Assembly: GCF_000284455.1 (NCBI RefSeq) | Contig: NC_017039.1 | Coordinates: 1,890,001-1,922,000, forward strand | Source of the DNA: Synechocystis sp. PCC 6803 substr. PCC-P | GTDB taxonomy: Bacteria > Cyanobacteriota > Cyanobacteriia > Cyanobacteriales > Microcystaceae | DNA: 32,000 bases | Direction: 5' to 3' | The notes under the pieces: model-generated | Database searches by the model: none | What the model was told of the DNA's origin: nothing | What the model saw: the letters and a program-made list of their open reading frames with translations, nothing else | Part shown: one piece after another, positions 6,598 to 11,260 of the stretch | Numbering within the stretch: the first letter of the stretch is position 1 | How the letters are laid out: every line of letters starts with the position of its first letter | Made by a program: the position numbers and the translations under genes

Positions 6598-7440
6598 ATG
6601 ACACCATCTGCGGCGAGTCATGCCATTGATACCCTGATCGAAATGGCCCACCAAGGGGAGATTAACCCCTGGGACGTGTCGGTGATCGATGTAATTGATC
6701 GCTTTTTGCAGGATCTGGGCATTCTCAACAGCCTCGACCTGAATTTTCAACAGCAAAATTTACCCCGTTCTGGCCAGGCTTTTCTTTGGGCCTCCATGTT
6801 GGTGCGCTACAAAGCTGACAGTCTCCACAATTTGGAGCAGGAACCAGAAGAAGTTTTACCTGAAGCTGAGCTAGAAGAATGGCCCGATGGTCTAATTGCC
6901 CGGTTACCAAGGGATTTAGAAAATCGTCTGCGTCGCCGCACTGCTGTCCCGCCCCTACAACGTCGTCGGGTTACCCTGGCGGAATTAATTGATCAGATCG
7001 AGGCGATCGCCGTTGAAATCGAAAAAAGCGAACAAAAACCCAAGCGGGTGAAACGGGCCCGTCCCCAATCCCGGCGGGAAGCACTACAAATCATTACCGA
7101 ATTAGCCCACCAGGAAAATTTAACTGAGTTAGCCAGCCAATTGGAACAATTTTTACAAACCCGTCTGCCGGAAATTTTGCCTGATTTACCCCATCGTTCC
7201 TGGGTAGATTTGGATACATTACTCCACTGTTGGCATCATCATTTAGATCCAGATAAATTGCCGGATAAAAAAGATAAAGTTGGCGTATTTTGGGCATTAC
7301 TATTATTAAGTTCCCAGTCGAAAGTATCTTTGGCTCAGGAAGAGTTTTACCAAGATTTACAAGTTCAAATTATTGATGACTCTGAAAAAAATATACAGTT
7401 AACCTTAGATCCAGAAACAGAAGTGTTAAACTCAGCCTAG
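6598..7440 (+). CDS. scpA: segregation and condensation protein A (kleisin)
   Basis: 280-aa ORF. The N-terminus has GEINPWDVSVIDVIDRFL. The C-terminus has FWALLLLSSQSKVSLAQEEFYQDLQVQI, which is the ScpA winged-helix pattern. Confidence 0.75.
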   Translation: MTPSAASHAIDTLIEMAHQGEINPWDVSVIDVIDRFLQDLGILNSLDLNFQQQNLPRSGQAFLWASMLVRYKADSLHNLEQEPEEVLPEAELEEWPDGLIARLPRDLENRLRRRTAVPPLQRRRVTLAELIDQIEAIAVEIEKSEQKPKRVKRARPQSRREALQIITELAHQENLTELASQLEQFLQTRLPEILPDLPHRSWVDLDTLLHCWHHHLDPDKLPDKKDKVGVFWALLLLSSQSKVSLAQEEFYQDLQVQIIDDSEKNIQLTLDPETEVLNSA

Positions 7441-7464
7441 TATGCAAGCAATTACTCTTAAATG

Positions 7465-8268
7465 CTAAATATTTCTTAGTTGCAAATCTAAAGACTCATA
7501 TGAGGAGTTAGATGTCAATCTAGTTGCATATAGATTCATTAAATCTTGGATGGAAATCAATTTAACTTCTATAGAATTAATTGCTTGAATTTTTCGAGAG
7601 TGTTGACGACTAATTATCCAAACTTGCTTATGATCTTCATGAAATTCTTCAACTATTCTATCTGAAAACTCTATTCTGCCTTGCTTCAATTGACTACAGT
7701 AATTAATGATTTGTTGACTTTTAAGAGTTTCAATGTCTCCCTTTGCCAAGGTACAGTCATAAATGACTGAAAGATTAGTAGTCCGAAAAAATCCATCCGC
7801 CTTACCAGCTTGTTTTTCTCCAAGGAAACTTTTGATAGTTACAATTCCTAGTGACTTTAATAATAAAAAGGTATATTTTTCAAACTCTTGCCAGTTATTA
7901 GTAGTAGCTAATATCGGAAAAAAGTTAGGGCAGATATCTGAATTATTTTCCCACGAAAGGTCTTTGGATTCTACTTCTATAGAGCTTGATTGAGACAAGT
8001 TATCAGCAGAAACATGCATTTGTCCAGAAGCGATACTTATAAGTTGATGTAATACACGCTCAAACTCCAACATCTCATCTTCAAAAATTCTTATTTTTGA
8101 TCCCACAAACTTGTCTCCAACCTTCTTGCGTTGATCGATAACAATATATTTTGAGCCATTTTTGGCTACCTTTAACTCAAAAAAATAATTATGGGAACCT
8201 GAGAAATAGCGAGCTTTATGCAATAATTCTCTTTCTTCTCTTGTGTACCATTGCTCTGAATTATCCAT
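7465..8268 (-). CDS. hypothetical 267-aa protein: PUR-like (DUF3276-like) N-terminal domain plus PD-(D/E)xK / FokI-cleavage-domain-like C-terminal domain (tentative)
   Basis: Track ORF in a low-GC stretch. N-terminal aa 20-78 read YFSGSHNYFFELKVAKNGSKYIVIDQRKK...SKIRIFEDEMLEFERVLHQL. The C-terminus reads WQEFEKYTFLLLKSLG...GKADGFF...SVIYDCTLAKGD...KQVWIISR. Both domain calls are made by eye only. Confidence 0.6.
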   Translation of the reverse strand: MDNSEQWYTREERELLHKARYFSGSHNYFFELKVAKNGSKYIVIDQRKKVGDKFVGSKIRIFEDEMLEFERVLHQLISIASGQMHVSADNLSQSSSIEVESKDLSWENNSDICPNFFPILATTNNWQEFEKYTFLLLKSLGIVTIKSFLGEKQAGKADGFFRTTNLSVIYDCTLAKGDIETLKSQQIINYCSQLKQGRIEFSDRIVEEFHEDHKQVWIISRQHSRKIQAINSIEVKLISIQDLMNLYATRLTSNSSYESLDLQLRNI

Positions 8269-8509
8269 TTTCGTAATTATTAGGAATGATTTGATTTTCT
8301 GAATAACTATAAACCGGAATTTGAATAAAATGATCCGGCTCCTGATTGTCTAGAACAGTCTGTTGTAAACACTCTACCGTTGCTGGCGAAAAAAACTGCT
8401 CTCCAGTTTCTTCATTAACCCGTGCTGGGACGTTTTCAATAATAATTAACCGACCATTTAAACTAAGGGTGTAATTTACCCTTTTTTCAACCAGAGTTTT
8501 GTTGTCCAT
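8261..8509 (-). CDS. 82-aa YgiT/MqsA-N-terminal-like protein lacking the zinc-binding cysteines (tentative)
   Basis: Track ORF. VEKRVNYTLSLNGRLIIIENVPARVNEETGEQFFSPATVECLQQ follows the YgiT-type zinc-ribbon pattern, but the Cys pairs are replaced. Its stop overlaps the start of the 267-aa gene by 8 nt (ATGGATAA on the minus strand). Confidence 0.5.
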   Translation of the reverse strand: MDNKTLVEKRVNYTLSLNGRLIIIENVPARVNEETGEQFFSPATVECLQQTVLDNQEPDHFIQIPVYSYSENQIIPNNYENG

Positions 8510-8727
8510 TATTGGTTTCTCTCCTTCGAGTGATCAGCAAGGTCATTACTGGATTGTTGAGGTGGGTATCTAAACCAAATTACACGGCGATCGCCATTGG
8601 GGAGGAGAGGCCTGGGTCCGCCCATGGTTAGGGGATGGGACCGATCAGATTCTCTGGCCAGGGCAACCCTTTGCTACAGTTGAATTGGTTACAAATAGTT
8701 AAAGTTCCGTCCCGCCGTTAAAAGTCT

Positions 8728-10176
8728 ATGTTTGATGCCTTAGCCGATCGCCTTGAAGATGCCTGGAAGAAGCTCCGGGGTCAGGACAAAATTAGTGAAA
8801 GCAATATTAAAGAGGCGCTTCAGGAAGTCAGGAGAGCCCTGTTGGCGGCGGACGTGAATCTCCAGGTGGTCAAGGGTTTCATCAAAGACGTAGAGCAAAA
8901 AGCCCTCGGTGCGGATGTGATCAGTGGGGTTAACCCAGGGCAACAGTTCATCAAAATTGTTTACGACGAACTGGTAAACCTGATGGGGGAAAGCAACGTG
9001 CCCCTAGCTCAAGCAGAGCAAGCTCCCACCGTCATTCTTATGGCCGGCTTGCAGGGGACCGGGAAAACCACCGCCACGGCCAAATTAGCCCTCTATCTCC
9101 GCAAACAAAAACGCAGTGCCCTGATGGTGGCCACGGACGTTTATCGCCCCGCCGCCATTGACCAACTAAAAACTCTGGGGCAACAGATTGATGTGCCTGT
9201 ATTTGACCTGGGCAGTGATGCCAACCCGGTGGAAATTGCCCGCCAAGGGGTGGAAAAAGCCAAGGAATTGGGAGTCGATACGGTCTTAATCGATACCGCC
9301 GGTCGTTTGCAGATTGATCCCCAAATGATGGCGGAGTTGGCCGAAATTAAACAGGTTGTTAAACCTGACGATACTCTACTGGTAGTAGATGCCATGACGG
9401 GGCAAGAGGCGGCCAATTTAACCCATACTTTCCACGAGCAAATTGGTATTACCGGAGCAATTCTTACCAAGTTAGATGGGGATACTAGGGGCGGTGCAGC
9501 CCTATCGGTGCGGCAAATTTCCGGCCAGCCGATCAAATTTGTCGGGGTGGGGGAAAAAGTGGAGGCCCTGCAACCTTTCTATCCCGATCGCCTAGCCAGT
9601 CGGATTTTAAACATGGGGGATGTGCTGACCCTGGTGGAAAAAGCCCAAGAGGCGATCGATGTCGGGGACGTGGAGAAGTTACAGAACAAGATTCTCGAAG
9701 CCACCTTCGATTTTGATGACTTCATTAAGCAAATGCGCTTTATGAAGAATATGGGTTCCCTAGGGGGTCTGCTGAAAATGATTCCCGGCATGAATAAGCT
9801 CAGCAGTGGCGACATCGAAAAAGGGGAAAAGGAACTCAAGCGCACCGAAGCCATGATTAGTTCCATGACCACGGAGGAAAGGAAGAATCCCGATTTATTA
9901 GCTAAATCCCCCAGTCGGCGTCGTCGCATAGCCCAAGGATCGGGTCATAGTGAAACCGATGTGTCTAAGCTAATCACCAATTTCACCAAGATGCGGACCA
10001 TGATGCAGCAAATGGGCATGGGAGGAATGCCTGGAGGTATGCCAGGGATGGGAGCAATGCCAGGCATGGGGGGAGGTATGTTTGGCGGTCAACCAGGCCC
10101 AGGTTTTCGAGGTTACAGAGGTGGTGGCGGTAAGCCGAAAAAGAAAAAGAAGAAAAAAGGTTTTGGCCAGCTTTAA
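8728..10176 (+). CDS. ffh: signal recognition particle protein Ffh (SRP54)
   Basis: 482-aa ORF with GLQGTGKTTT, DTAGR and TKLDGD GTPase motifs. It has a Met-rich M domain and a Gly/Met-rich tail ending KPKKKKKKKGFGQL. Confidence 0.97.
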   Translation: MFDALADRLEDAWKKLRGQDKISESNIKEALQEVRRALLAADVNLQVVKGFIKDVEQKALGADVISGVNPGQQFIKIVYDELVNLMGESNVPLAQAEQAPTVILMAGLQGTGKTTATAKLALYLRKQKRSALMVATDVYRPAAIDQLKTLGQQIDVPVFDLGSDANPVEIARQGVEKAKELGVDTVLIDTAGRLQIDPQMMAELAEIKQVVKPDDTLLVVDAMTGQEAANLTHTFHEQIGITGAILTKLDGDTRGGAALSVRQISGQPIKFVGVGEKVEALQPFYPDRLASRILNMGDVLTLVEKAQEAIDVGDVEKLQNKILEATFDFDDFIKQMRFMKNMGSLGGLLKMIPGMNKLSSGDIEKGEKELKRTEAMISSMTTEERKNPDLLAKSPSRRRRIAQGSGHSETDVSKLITNFTKMRTMMQQMGMGGMPGGMPGMGAMPGMGGGMFGGQPGPGFRGYRGGGGKPKKKKKKKGFGQL

Positions 10177-10412: not shown

Positions 10413-10907
10413 CTAAACGCCACAGTAAGAACGGATAATTTCATCAAGAGACGTGTCAATAGGAGCGTACATTCTAGCTCGTTTCAAGGCACTAAAGTCA
10501 TGCTCAATATCATTTAAATCAGGAGAATATTTCGGCAAAAAAAGAACTTCATGACCTGCTTCTTTAGCCAATTCTTTAATGGCAGTTTTACGATGAATAG
10601 GAGCATTATCCATTATTAATATTGATGGAATGTCGAGGGAGGGTAGCAAATATAATTTTAACCATCCTTCAAAGCCTTCTGCATTCAAACTCCCGGTAAA
10701 AACCATCGGCGCAATCAAATCTTTTTTTCCTTTTCTTCTCCCTGCTACTAGATTTTCTCTGACTCCCCTTTTTCCTTGTCTATCTCCATAAACTTTTTTT
10801 CCTTTTTTTGACCAGGCATAAATACAAGCCTGGATTGCTTCGAATCCAGATTCATCTATGTAAACTATAGCTTGACTACCATAGAGCTTAATTAGTTCTC
10901 TTAACAT
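10413..10907 (-). CDS. IS630-family transposase, C-terminal DDE catalytic part (orfB; its frame is open upstream to the A9 run)
   Basis: The track ORF contains VYIDESGF, LIMDNAPIH and SPDLNDIEHDF. By my count 35 residues separate the second D from the E. It lies in the -1 frame relative to orfA. Confidence 0.85.
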   Translation of the reverse strand: MLRELIKLYGSQAIVYIDESGFEAIQACIYAWSKKGKKVYGDRQGKRGVRENLVAGRRKGKKDLIAPMVFTGSLNAEGFEGWLKLYLLPSLDIPSILIMDNAPIHRKTAIKELAKEAGHEVLFLPKYSPDLNDIEHDFSALKRARMYAPIDTSLDEIIRSYCGV

Positions 10908-11260
10908 TCTATAGTACTTAACTCGTTCCTCCCGGTTTCTTTCTCGATAACGTAGTTCTTTTTTTTTCTGTTTATTTTCATTTTCTTTAATGCGTAATAT
11001 ACGGCACTCGGCCTCACTCCAAATTTCTTGGCTCTGTCTATCAATCTTGCATCGGGATTTTCTTCTACGTCTTTTTTTAGAGCTTCCCAGTCTAATTTCC
11101 TATGGCGACGCTCTACTTTTGTTGGGCTTAAATCTACTCTATTTAACCATCTGTATATCGAGGCTTTTCCTATTTTATATATCTTGGAAGCCTCAGTTAT
11201 TTTTCCTCCAGCTTCTATATAAGCTACTACCCTTTGCCTTAAATCTAAACTGTAAGCCAT
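10901..11260 (-). CDS. IS630-family transposase, N-terminal HTH part (orfA, 119 aa)
   Basis: The track ORF begins MAYSLDLRQRVVAYIEAGGKITEASKIYKIGKASIYRWL, a helix-turn-helix. It ends shortly after the A9 run. Confidence 0.85.
   Translation of the reverse strand: MAYSLDLRQRVVAYIEAGGKITEASKIYKIGKASIYRWLNRVDLSPTKVERRHRKLDWEALKKDVEENPDARLIDRAKKFGVRPSAVYYALKKMKINRKKKNYVIEKETGRNELSTIEC
10958..10964 (-). other. candidate -1 frameshift / slippage site A-AAA-AAG inside an A9 run (run = 10959-10967)
   Basis: On the minus strand orfA reads AGA AAA AAA AAG AAC. Slipping back one base gives ...KKK ELRYRERNREERVKYYR MLRELI..., which joins orfA to orfB as a 282-aa protein (101 + 17 + 164 aa by my count). 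Confidence 0.55.

What the first reader, a model, noticed from the sequence alone, without database searches (positions are those of the whole stretch)
7441..8520. Low-GC two-gene cassette between scpA and ffh: a Cys-less YgiT/MqsA-like protein coupled to a PUR-like plus nuclease-like protein
Seen directly: hand counts of 60-nt lines in this stretch give about 27-33% G+C, against about 53% in the scpA core. I found no HIP1 octamer between 7010 and 8587. Two minus-strand ORFs of 82 aa and 267 aa overlap by 8 nt (ATGGATAA), which implies translational coupling. They sit between two core housekeeping genes.

By eye, the 82-aa protein follows the YgiT-type zinc-ribbon / MqsA N-domain pattern (IIIENVPARVNEETGEQFFSPATVECLQQ), but both Cys pairs are lost. 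The N-terminus of the 267-aa protein (YFFELKVAKNGSKYIVIDQRKK...IRIFEDEMLEFERVLHQL, nt 8035-8247) looks like a PUR/DUF3276 repeat that binds single-stranded nucleic acid.

Its C-terminus (nt 7468-7911) has the layout of a PD-(D/E)xK or FokI-cleavage-type domain. That layout is a helix with E129 (WQEFEKYTFLLLKSLG), then D158 (KADGFF), then D171 (VIYDCTLAK) with a Lys at +5 rather than +2, then a hydrophobic strand KQVWIISR.

Inference: this may be a horizontally acquired toxin-antitoxin or defence-type module whose effector tethers a nuclease fold to an ssDNA/RNA-binding domain. I do not know of a described system with this architecture.

Caveats: the GC drop already begins inside the 3' end of scpA (from about 7250), whose C-terminus still looks like genuine ScpA. 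The catalytic Lys position is non-canonical, so the domain could be inactive.
Basis: partly seen in the sequence, partly recalled or inferred. Interest (0 to 1): 0.75.

Follow-up and report, generated by a model that had tools for sequence, protein, structure and literature searches.

The report
Orphan antitoxin beside a PUR-nuclease gene
The two overlapping genes are not one module: the small one is the surviving antitoxin of a toxin-antitoxin pair whose toxin was deleted, and the large one (sll1439) is a stand-alone, uncharacterised enzyme that joins a single-strand nucleic-acid-binding PUR repeat to a restriction-endonuclease-type domain, built on the same plan as single-protein anti-phage nucleases.

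Summary
The sequence observation holds: Synechocystis PCC 6803, two minus-strand ORFs (82 aa; 267 aa = sll1439), an 8-nt overlap, about 33-35% GC.

- The small protein passes the YgiT-finger model and lacks the cysteines.
- sll1439 has an N-terminal PUR repeat and a C-terminal PD-(D/E)xK nuclease fold. Its best structural matches are R.BspD6I and McrC.

The "coupled cassette / toxin-antitoxin" reading fails.
- Relatives of the small gene sit just downstream of a DUF4258 (RelE/ParE-superfamily) toxin gene in 63 of 75 assessable loci. None of 80 sits next to an sll1439 relative.
- None of 64 sll1439-family loci carries the small gene.
- Three Synechocystis genomes show the history at this same ffh-scpA site. 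S. salina has the toxin and the small gene. PCC 6803 has an in-frame 285-nt toxin deletion. PCC 6714 also lost most of the small gene, yet keeps sll1439 intact (dN/dS 0.12).
- The 8-nt overlap comes from a secondary micro-deletion.

The sll1439 nuclease domain is rare (220 cluster representatives). It has no Pfam or PADLOC model and is fused to interchangeable reader domains: PUR, cold-shock, MrcB_N and an unknown domain. Its catalytic Lys has moved from DxK to K183, with perfect covariation (276 sequences).

The most likely function is a Shedu-like single-protein sensor-nuclease. That function is inferred, not shown.

The parts
8261..8509 (-). 82-aa Cys-less YgiT/MqsA-N-like protein. It is the orphan antitoxin-type gene of a decayed DUF4258-YgiT pair. 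Its last ~10 codons (QIIPNNYENG) are read from what was the sll1439 leader.
   Evidence: ORF. TIGR03831 hit above cutoff. More than 1000 homologues at 68-85% identity. An upstream DUF4258 gene is present in relatives. The tail/junction is shown.
8487..8546 (-). 19-codon remnant (MTLLITRRRETNNGQQNSG) of the DUF4258 toxin gene. The first ~6 and last ~13 codons were joined by an in-frame 285-nt deletion. The remnant still overlaps the start of the small gene.
   Evidence: tblastn with the S. salina toxin (residues 100-114) and blastn breakpoints. Alignment A3. Coordinates. The S. salina toxin is PF14076 at E 4e-25.
7465..8268 (-). sll1439, 267 aa. A solitary PUR-repeat plus PD-(D/E)xK nuclease fusion protein.
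   Evidence: ORF. Identity to sll1439. AF2 model with pLDDT 81.9. dN/dS of 0.12 against PCC 6714.
8029..8235 (-). PUR repeat (residues ~12-80, four beta strands then a helix).
   Evidence: Profile against PDB gives 3nm7/3n8b at E 2e-6. Foldseek gives 3nm7_C at E 3e-5, TM 0.86. Pfam PurA E 0.006 and DUF3276 E 0.12, both sub-threshold. Secondary structure. Homologues with two tandem copies.
7936..8028 (-). Variable, low-confidence linker (residues 81-111).
   Evidence: pLDDT below 50 for residues 84-103. Length-variable and unconserved in alignment A1.
7468..7935 (-). PD-(D/E)xK nuclease-like domain (residues 112-267). Conserved E130, D158, D171 (T173 in place of the canonical Lys), K183, Q186, N189, Y190, K214 and W217.
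   Evidence: Domain model with pLDDT 89.9. Foldseek gives 2p14 at E 1e-4, McrC at 7e-4 and Nt.BspD6I at TMq 0.60. Conservation and the K173/K183 covariation. 220 cluster representatives.
7387..8293 (-). Segment present in PCC 6803 and PCC 6714 but absent from S. salina at the same ffh-scpA site. It carries sll1439, the new 3' tail of the small gene and the last ~17 codons of scpA.
   Evidence: blastn breakpoints. The ScpA C-terminal tails differ after ...QVQIID.

Best explanation
Two unrelated elements lie side by side in one variable slot between ffh and scpA.

(A) Relic of a toxin-antitoxin pair.
- The 82-aa gene is the antitoxin-type half of a DUF4258 (RelE/ParE-superfamily toxin) / Cys-less YgiT-like pair.
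- In the common ancestor of PCC 6803 and PCC 6714 the toxin lost 95 codons through an in-frame deletion. This left a 19-codon stub and an orphan small gene.
- A later ~60-nt deletion in the 6803 line removed the small gene's own stop codon and the spacer. The ORF now runs into the sll1439 leader and ends 8 nt inside sll1439.

(B) sll1439, an independent single-gene unit.
- It consists of one PUR repeat, a floppy linker and a PD-(D/E)xK nuclease domain.
- The metal-binding triad is E130/D158/D171. The catalytic lysine has relocated from the DxK position (T173) to K183 on the following helix.

Inferred mechanism for (B).
- The PUR repeat pairs with that of a second subunit, as single-repeat Pur-alpha does in Borrelia. 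This would form a binding surface for single-stranded DNA or RNA and bring two nuclease domains together.
- Binding of single-stranded nucleic acid (phage or plasmid replication intermediates, DNA ends, transcripts) would target or license cleavage.
- This is the logic of Shedu-type and type-IV-restriction-type single-protein immune nucleases, carried out here with a different nuclease family.

Status of each step. The domain identities, the independence of the two genes and the order of deletions are shown. Dimerisation, substrate, nuclease activity and a defence role are inferred.
For: (A) Relic of a toxin-antitoxin pair:
- A DUF4258 gene lies directly upstream and overlaps the small gene in PCC 7335, in metagenome loci and in S. 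salina. The same holds in 50 full plus 13 partial of 75 assessable metagenome loci.
- S. salina has ffh | DUF4258 | small gene | scpA at the same site.
- The window keeps only toxin codons ~1-6 and 100-114. PCC 6714 shares the identical deletion.
- PCC 6714 retains the native 3' end of the small gene and a spacer before sll1439, which shows how the 6803 overlap arose.
- DUF4258 is listed as a RelE/ParE-superfamily toxin, and DUF4258-MqsA fusions are known (PMC11980606).

(B) sll1439 as an independent PUR-nuclease:
- PUR repeat. Homologues with two tandem PUR repeats.
- Nuclease fold. A weak recurrent Mrr_cat hit.
- In 276 sequences E130 is present in 273, and D158, D171 and Q186 in all 276. 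K183 is present in 272. The only 4 sequences with K at position 173 (canonical DxK) are exactly the 4 that lack K183, and they come from at least 3 lineages.
- Migration of catalytic residues is known in this superfamily (PMC3424549).
- The same nuclease domain is fused to 1-4 cold-shock domains, to MrcB_N, to a possibly PUA-like domain and to an unknown ~110-aa domain.
- The genes are solitary, with no conserved neighbour.
- sll1439 is under purifying selection (dN/dS 0.12).
- Shedu uses the same sensor classes, namely sPC4/Whirly, PUA and CSD.
Against: - No experiment bears on sll1439, and no paper in the library mentions it.
- The canonical DxK lysine is absent, so activity rests on the K183 inference.
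- There is no sequence-level link to FokI, BspD6I or any PDB nuclease. The fold assignment rests on AF2 models and Foldseek E-values of 1e-4 to 1e-3.
- Most neighbourhoods are housekeeping genes, not defence islands. Only two of seven PUR-type contexts look defence- or mobile-element-rich.
- The CSD-type relatives are syntenic within Nostoc, Microcoleus and Gilliamella, which would also fit a housekeeping role.
- The small gene is still intact and in an operon-like position, so co-transcription and some acquired interplay in PCC 6803 cannot be excluded.
Confidence: 0.62

Rival explanations
1. The two genes form one horizontally acquired toxin-antitoxin or defence module, in which the YgiT-like protein controls the nuclease Sll1439 and the two are translationally coupled.
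For: The genes share a strand, an 8-nt overlap and low G+C. YgiT/MqsA-type proteins are antitoxins. Sll1439 has a nuclease fold.
Against: There is no co-occurrence in either direction (0 of 64 and 0 of 80). The cognate partner of the small gene is DUF4258. PCC 6714 keeps an intact sll1439 under purifying selection although its small gene is reduced to 28 codons. The overlap was produced by a secondary deletion.
Confidence: 0.06
2. Sll1439 and its relatives are housekeeping nucleases that act on single-stranded DNA or RNA in repair, recombination or RNA turnover, not in conflict with foreign DNA.
For: The gene sits between core genes. It has been inherited vertically since the 6803/6714 split, with a dS like that of ffh (0.42 against 0.49) and dN/dS of 0.12. 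CSD-type relatives are syntenic within genera. No copies were found in the plasmid or phage collections.
Against: The family is very rare and patchy: 220 cluster representatives out of 1.84 billion. It is scattered over Cyanobacteria, Chloroflexota, Bacteroidota, Cloacimonadota and Proteobacteria at 40-60% identity, and absent from S. salina. Truncated copies are frequent (L001, L010, L012, L043, L062, L064). The reader domains are swapped and include MrcB_N, a hallmark of modification-dependent restriction. G+C is low.
Confidence: 0.2
3. The nuclease-like domain is catalytically dead, and Sll1439 is a nucleic-acid-binding regulator like Borrelia Bpur.
For: The canonical DxK lysine is replaced by Thr in 267 of 276 sequences. 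Bacterial single-repeat PUR proteins act as DNA/RNA-binding regulators (PMC3764826, listed).
Against: The three acidic residues are invariant, and a lysine is always present at either position 173 or position 183 and never at both or neither. That pattern is expected for an active site and not for a degenerate one.
Confidence: 0.08
4. sll1439 is a selfish, homing-type endonuclease gene that inserted itself between ffh and scpA.
For: It is a solitary low-G+C gene in an otherwise conserved intergenic slot. The insertion replaced the last ~17 codons of scpA. Relatives also sit alone between unrelated genes.
Against: There is no intron, intein or repeat boundary. Only one copy is present. The gene has been inherited stably with a host-like dS. 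The variable reader domains fit sensing better than site-specific homing.
Confidence: 0.05

Closest known systems
Shedu (SduA), especially type 1A (sPC4/Whirly-fold N-terminal sensor plus C-terminal PD-(D/E)xK nuclease)
   Same: Both are single-gene systems with an N-terminal single-strand-binding beta-beta-beta-beta-alpha module that is expected to dimerise, a linker, and a C-terminal PD-(D/E)xK nuclease. In both, the family swaps the N-terminal module among Whirly/PUR-type, PUA-type and CSD domains.
   Different: The nuclease domain is not DUF4263. There is no Pfam PF14082 hit and no PADLOC hit, and no Shedu structure appears among the top 50 Foldseek matches. The catalytic Lys is relocated to K183. 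Anti-phage activity has not been tested.
FokI / R.BspD6I-type cleavage domains and McrC (type IIS and type IV restriction nucleases)
   Same: These are the best structural matches to the C-terminal domain (2p14 E 1e-4; Nt.BspD6I TMq 0.60, rmsd 3.6; McrC E 7e-4). The order of elements is the same: helix with Glu, strand with Asp, strand with Asp. From general knowledge, this class of cleavage domain needs dimerisation.
   Different: No sequence similarity is detectable. The motif is DxT instead of DxK. There is no methyltransferase, AAA+ partner or dsDNA-recognition domain.
Borrelia burgdorferi Pur-alpha / Bpur and the PUR (PF04845, DUF3276) family
   Same: sll1439 has a single PUR repeat of the same topology (Foldseek TM 0.86; profile E 2e-6). 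Homologues carry two repeats, like a complete PUR domain.
   Different: Bpur is a stand-alone binding protein. Here the repeat is fused to a nuclease domain. The Pfam scores are below the gathering thresholds.
DUF4258 / MqsA(YgiT)-type type II toxin-antitoxin pairs (RelE/ParE superfamily)
   Same: The 82-aa protein matches the YgiT-finger model. Its relatives are encoded overlapping a DUF4258 toxin gene.
   Different: It has no zinc-binding cysteines and no HTH domain. In the window the toxin is deleted, so the pair is no longer a toxin-antitoxin system.

Membership tests
YgiT-type zinc finger / MqsA N-terminal domain (TIGR03831) | Match to the family HMM above the curated cutoff | tested here: met
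   26.7 bits against a cutoff of 20.2, E 4.8e-6, residues 4-42.
YgiT-type zinc finger / MqsA N-terminal domain (TIGR03831) | Two Cys pairs (CxxC ... CxxC) that bind zinc | tested here: not met
   There is one Cys (C47), which does not lie in a CxxC pair. The whole cyanobacterial subfamily lacks the cysteine pairs.
MqsA-type antitoxin of a type II TA pair | Adjacent cognate toxin gene (MqsR or DUF4258) | tested here: not met
   Only a 19-codon DUF4258 stub remains in the window. The feature is met in relatives: 63 of 75 assessable loci.
MqsA-type antitoxin of a type II TA pair | C-terminal HTH DNA-binding domain | tested here: not met
   The protein is 82 aa with no Pfam HTH hit.
Two-gene TA/defence cassette (small gene + sll1439) | Conserved co-occurrence of the two genes | tested here: not met
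   0 of 64 sll1439-family loci and 0 of 80 small-gene loci carry the partner. PCC 6714 has sll1439 without a functional small gene.
PUR repeat (PF04845 PurA / PF11680 DUF3276) | Beta-beta-beta-beta-alpha repeat that superposes on solved PUR repeats | tested here: met
   AF2 strands 14-23, 26-34, 40-50 and 53-62, then helix 63-80. Foldseek match to 3nm7_C with TM 0.86, E 3e-5. Family profile against PDB gives E 1.7e-6.
PUR repeat (PF04845 PurA / PF11680 DUF3276) | Pfam gathering threshold | tested here: not met
   PurA scores 16.4 bits against 25. DUF3276 scores 12.9 against 23.1. One homologue (P0005) carries a precomputed PF11680 hit.
PUR repeat (PF04845 PurA / PF11680 DUF3276) | Binding of single-stranded DNA/RNA; dimerisation of single repeats | not testable with these tools
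   Inferred from Borrelia Pur-alpha and from the two-repeat homologues.
PD-(D/E)xK nuclease superfamily | Restriction-endonuclease-like alpha-beta-beta-beta-alpha-beta core | tested here: met
   Domain model with pLDDT 89.9. Most of the top-50 Foldseek matches, and all of the top 13, are PD-(D/E)xK nucleases. There is a weak recurrent Mrr_cat hit.
PD-(D/E)xK nuclease superfamily | Catalytic E ... D ... (D/E)xK residues | tested here: inconclusive
   E130, D158 and D171 are invariant. The xK position is Thr. A lysine is present at either 173 or 183 in all 276 sequences and never at both. This is consistent with residue migration (PMC3424549).
PD-(D/E)xK nuclease superfamily | Metal-dependent phosphodiester cleavage | not testable with these tools
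   This needs a biochemical assay.
Shedu (SduA, DUF4263 / PF14082) | DUF4263 nuclease domain | tested here: not met
   No PF14082 hit at E up to 1 for sll1439 or up to 10 for 23 family members. No PADLOC hit. No Shedu structure in the Foldseek top 50.
Shedu (SduA, DUF4263 / PF14082) | Single-gene system with variable N-terminal sensor domains | tested here: met
   The genes are solitary. PUR, CSD, MrcB_N, PUA-like and unknown N-terminal domains occur on one nuclease domain.
FokI cleavage domain | Sequence or profile similarity to the FokI catalytic domain | tested here: not met
   BLASTP E 4.4. hhalign probability 0.1%. No PDB sequence hit with the domain profile.

The most novel reading that the evidence does not exclude
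sll1439 would be the founding, genetically tractable member of an undescribed family of single-protein immune nucleases. The family has its own PD-(D/E)xK branch with a relocated catalytic lysine, carries interchangeable readers (PUR, cold-shock, MrcB_N, PUA-like and an unknown domain), and has no entry in Pfam or PADLOC. In this reading a bacterial PUR repeat senses single-stranded phage or plasmid nucleic acid and licenses cleavage. That would be a family parallel to Shedu that arrived at the same design independently.
Probability: 0.35. Interest if true: 0.65.

Novelty: new variant of a known kind. Interest (0 to 1): 0.5.

Why it matters
The finding corrects a tempting misreading. Overlapping, low-G+C, same-strand genes can be an accident of deletions, not a module. 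The three Synechocystis genomes give an unusually clean step-by-step record of how a toxin-antitoxin pair decays: first the toxin, then the antitoxin.

The finding also gives a first, testable annotation for sll1439, a 'hypothetical protein' of a model cyanobacterium. The gene defines a rare nuclease domain family with no Pfam or PADLOC model. The family follows the sensor-plus-nuclease design of Shedu and type IV restriction enzymes, but uses PUR and cold-shock readers. If it proves active, it would add a defence or nucleic-acid-surveillance protein to cyanobacteria. It would also give a clear example of catalytic-lysine migration supported by natural covariation.

Tried and rejected
Searches that found nothing:
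- A DUF4258 gene or pseudogene elsewhere in the window: tblastn found only the 15-codon C-terminal stub.
- Sequence-level links of the nuclease domain to known structures or families: BLASTP and hhalign against FokI, and the domain profile against all PDB sequences, gave nothing significant. Pfam on 23 members gave only a sub-threshold Mrr_cat hit. PADLOC gave nothing.
- Copies of sll1439 in the plasmid and phage collections: none.
- A conserved neighbour across 64 family loci: only within-genus synteny with housekeeping genes.
- A match for the commonest N-terminal partner domain (alignment A5): no significant PDB hit and no Pfam hit.
- Literature on sll1439: no paper in the library mentions it.

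Checks that were uninformative:
- The promoter/terminator scan of 7300-8800 gave no more sites than shuffled sequence.
- The viral structure library gave only high-rmsd two-domain matches, one of them annotated as a restriction endonuclease.

Ideas considered and rejected:
- The HIP1-free stretch is evidence of foreign origin. The gap is not unusual.
- The G+C drop inside scpA marks the edge of the island. The drop is native to scpA.
Full report
**Observation**

The window is Synechocystis sp. PCC 6803. The 267-aa ORF at 7465-8268(-) is identical to sll1439. The 82-aa ORF at 8261-8509(-) overlaps it by 8 nt. G+C is 0.30-0.35 across about 7200-8400, against about 0.5 on both sides. sll1439 is 0.327, the small gene 0.353 and the whole window 0.481. 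The nearest HIP1 octamers are at 7003 and 8587, with none between. With 31 sites in 32 kb, that gap is unremarkable. ScpA and Ffh flank the pair.

Four details need correcting:
- Residue 129 is Phe. The invariant helix glutamate is E130.
- K176 is not conserved.
- The G+C decline in the last third of scpA also occurs in S. salina, which lacks sll1439.
- The lack of cysteine pairs is a trait of the whole subfamily.

**The small gene**

The small protein passes NCBIfam TIGR03831 (YgiT finger) at 26.7 bits, against a cutoff of 20.2. It has more than 1000 relatives, mostly 77-aa cyanobacterial proteins at 68-85% identity with an invariant NVPARVNEETGEQFFS core.

Its relatives have a different neighbour from the one in the window. 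In Synechococcus PCC 7335, in several metagenome contigs and in Synechocystis salina, the gene directly upstream is a 110-114-aa DUF4258 protein whose end overlaps the small gene's start. The S. salina protein matches PF14076 at E 4e-25. In 80 metagenome loci, 50 have a full DUF4258 gene in that position and 13 a partial one. Twelve have none detectable and 5 are too short upstream to judge. None has an sll1439 relative. DUF4258 is classed with the RelE/ParE BECR-fold toxins, and DUF4258-MqsA fusions are known (PMC11980606).

**History of the locus**

The same ffh-scpA slot in three Synechocystis genomes gives the order of events.
- S. salina has ffh | DUF4258 | small gene | scpA, with no sll1439.
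- PCC 6803 and PCC 6714 share one identical deletion that removes toxin codons ~7-101. It is 285 nt, in frame, with 4-nt microhomology at the breakpoints. It leaves a 19-codon stub, MTLLITRRRETNNGQQNSG, at window 8487-8546(-).
- PCC 6714 then lost codons ~29-75 of the small gene. It kept the small gene's native end (GTAGCCTGA) and a ~50-nt spacer ahead of the sll1439 ATG.
- PCC 6803 instead lost the last five native codons and that spacer. The small ORF now reads into the sll1439 leader, gains the tail QIIPNNYENG and stops 8 nt inside sll1439.

The overlap is therefore a by-product of a micro-deletion, not an ancestral coupling device.

The segment 7387-8293 is absent from S. salina. It includes the last ~17 codons of scpA, whose tail differs among the three genomes.

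sll1439 is intact in PCC 6714 (90% identity). Its dN/dS is 0.12 and its dS is 0.42, close to the 0.49 of ffh. It is therefore maintained without the small protein. Across the other direction of the test, none of 64 sll1439-family loci from reference genomes contains the small gene. Together these results refute the two-gene module.

**sll1439: the N-terminal domain**

- A profile of 31 homologues hits only Borrelia Pur-alpha in the PDB (3nm7 and 3n8b, E 2e-6).
- The AF2 model (pLDDT 81.9) shows four strands and a helix at residues 14-80.
- Foldseek superposes this region on 3nm7 with TM 0.86.
- Pfam PurA and DUF3276 hits are sub-threshold.
- Longer homologues (341-418 aa) carry two tandem copies, which is what a complete PUR domain needs.

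**sll1439: the C-terminal domain**

Modelled alone, the domain reaches pLDDT 89.9 and pTM 0.86. Its best PDB matches are the R.BspD6I small subunit (E 1e-4), McrC (7e-4) and the Nt.BspD6I cleavage domain (TMq 0.60, rmsd 3.6). After these come DdmD, R2 endonucleases, Hjc, HindIII and Can2, all PD-(D/E)xK enzymes. No sequence-level link to any solved structure or to FokI was found. Pfam gives only a weak, recurrent Mrr_cat signal, and PADLOC gives nothing.

An exhaustive phmmer search of 1.84 billion cluster representatives finds only 220 relatives of this domain.

**Active site**

In 276 sequences, D158, D171 and Q186 are invariant and E130 is present in 273. Position 173, the canonical Lys of DxK, is Thr in 267 and Ser in 5. 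K183 is present in 272. The four sequences with Lys at 173 are exactly the four without K183. They belong to at least three lineages that are only 35-42% identical to each other. If the four K173 sequences were placed at random among the 276, the chance that they would be exactly the four lacking K183 is about 4e-9. That figure is not corrected for phylogeny. Relocation of catalytic residues is documented in this superfamily (PMC3424549). I read this pattern as an active site with a migrated lysine, not a dead domain. The geometry could not be measured because model coordinates are not exposed.

**Modularity of the family**

The same nuclease domain carries several different N-terminal modules:
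- one or two PUR repeats;
- one to four cold-shock domains (PF00313, up to E 2e-27);
- an MrcB_N domain (PF12102, E 1e-8);
- a possibly PUA-like domain (weak DCD hit);
- most often, an unknown ~110-aa domain.

The genes are solitary, and no neighbour is conserved beyond a genus. Two of seven PUR-type contexts are rich in toxin-antitoxin or defence-like genes. The rest are ordinary. Several copies are truncated. No copies occur in the plasmid or phage collections.

**Comparison with known systems**

The design is a reader domain, a linker and a PD-(D/E)xK nuclease in one solitary gene, with readers exchanged among Whirly/PUR-type, PUA-type and CSD domains. That is the design described for Shedu (bioRxiv 10.1101/2023.08.10.552793) and, for the MrcB_N variants, for type IV restriction enzymes. 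Membership in Shedu fails on the defining DUF4263 domain. sll1439 therefore works like Shedu on paper but belongs to a separate nuclease family.

**Verdict**

What remains is a neat record of toxin-antitoxin decay, plus an uncharacterised reader-nuclease family with a migrated lysine, represented in a model organism. The defence function is inferred, with a probability of about 0.35-0.5. A housekeeping single-strand nuclease role is the main rival.

Noticed in passing
window 10413-11260 (-): An IS630-family transposase is split into two ORFs: 119 aa (HTH_Tnp_IS630, E 1e-58) and 164 aa (DDE_3, E 9e-32). They overlap by 7 nt, in a low-G+C stretch just downstream of ffh. At the corresponding side of ffh, S. 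salina and PCC 6714 have a fatty-acid desaturase gene instead.
   Followed up: partly
loci L020-L022, L034 and proteins P0267, P0281, P0296, P0297 (N-terminal ~110 aa): The commonest N-terminal partner of the sll1439-type nuclease domain is an uncharacterised domain (consensus MxxxYxMVTxWxxHWD ... TIFIK ... AWxGxV ... YFxV ... GWY). It has no significant Pfam or PDB sequence match. All four sequences that keep the canonical DxK lysine carry this domain.
   Followed up: partly
window 8261-8509 vs L071 6001-6234: Synonymous divergence of the small gene between PCC 6803 and S. salina is far lower than that of the adjacent ffh (dS 0.09 against 0.63). dN/dS is 0.59 on only 13 substitutions. This suggests recent horizontal exchange of the toxin-antitoxin module, or constraint at the nucleotide level.
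   Followed up: no
L001, L010, L012, L043, L062, L064; P0075: Several members of the sll1439 / nuclease-domain family are interrupted by stops or internal deletions, for example in Crocosphaera, Anaerolineales, Gilliamella and a Cloacimonetes MAG.
   Followed up: no
L068 4553-5011; metagenome loci L084-L149: Other genomes also show decayed or missing DUF4258 toxins next to an intact small gene (13 partial and 12 undetected among 75 loci). Orphaning of this antitoxin is therefore recurrent.
   Followed up: partly
window 7387-7440 (3' end of scpA): The last ~15-17 residues of ScpA differ among PCC 6803, PCC 6714 and S. salina. One edge of the sll1439-bearing indel therefore lies inside the scpA coding region.
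   Followed up: partly
window 8276-8303 (-): A sigma-70-like match (TTCAGA-16-AATAAT) lies inside the 3' end of the small gene and ends 8 nt before the sll1439 ATG. It would give a nearly leaderless transcript. The scan as a whole found no more sites than shuffled sequence.
   Followed up: no
L159 3419-5696 and L075 1-6267: Two PUR-type homologues sit next to defence- or mobile-element-like genes. L159 has an AAA_15/AAA_21 ATPase with a 220-aa partner and an integrase fragment. L075 has PemK and BrnT toxin genes and a DndB-like fragment.
   Followed up: no
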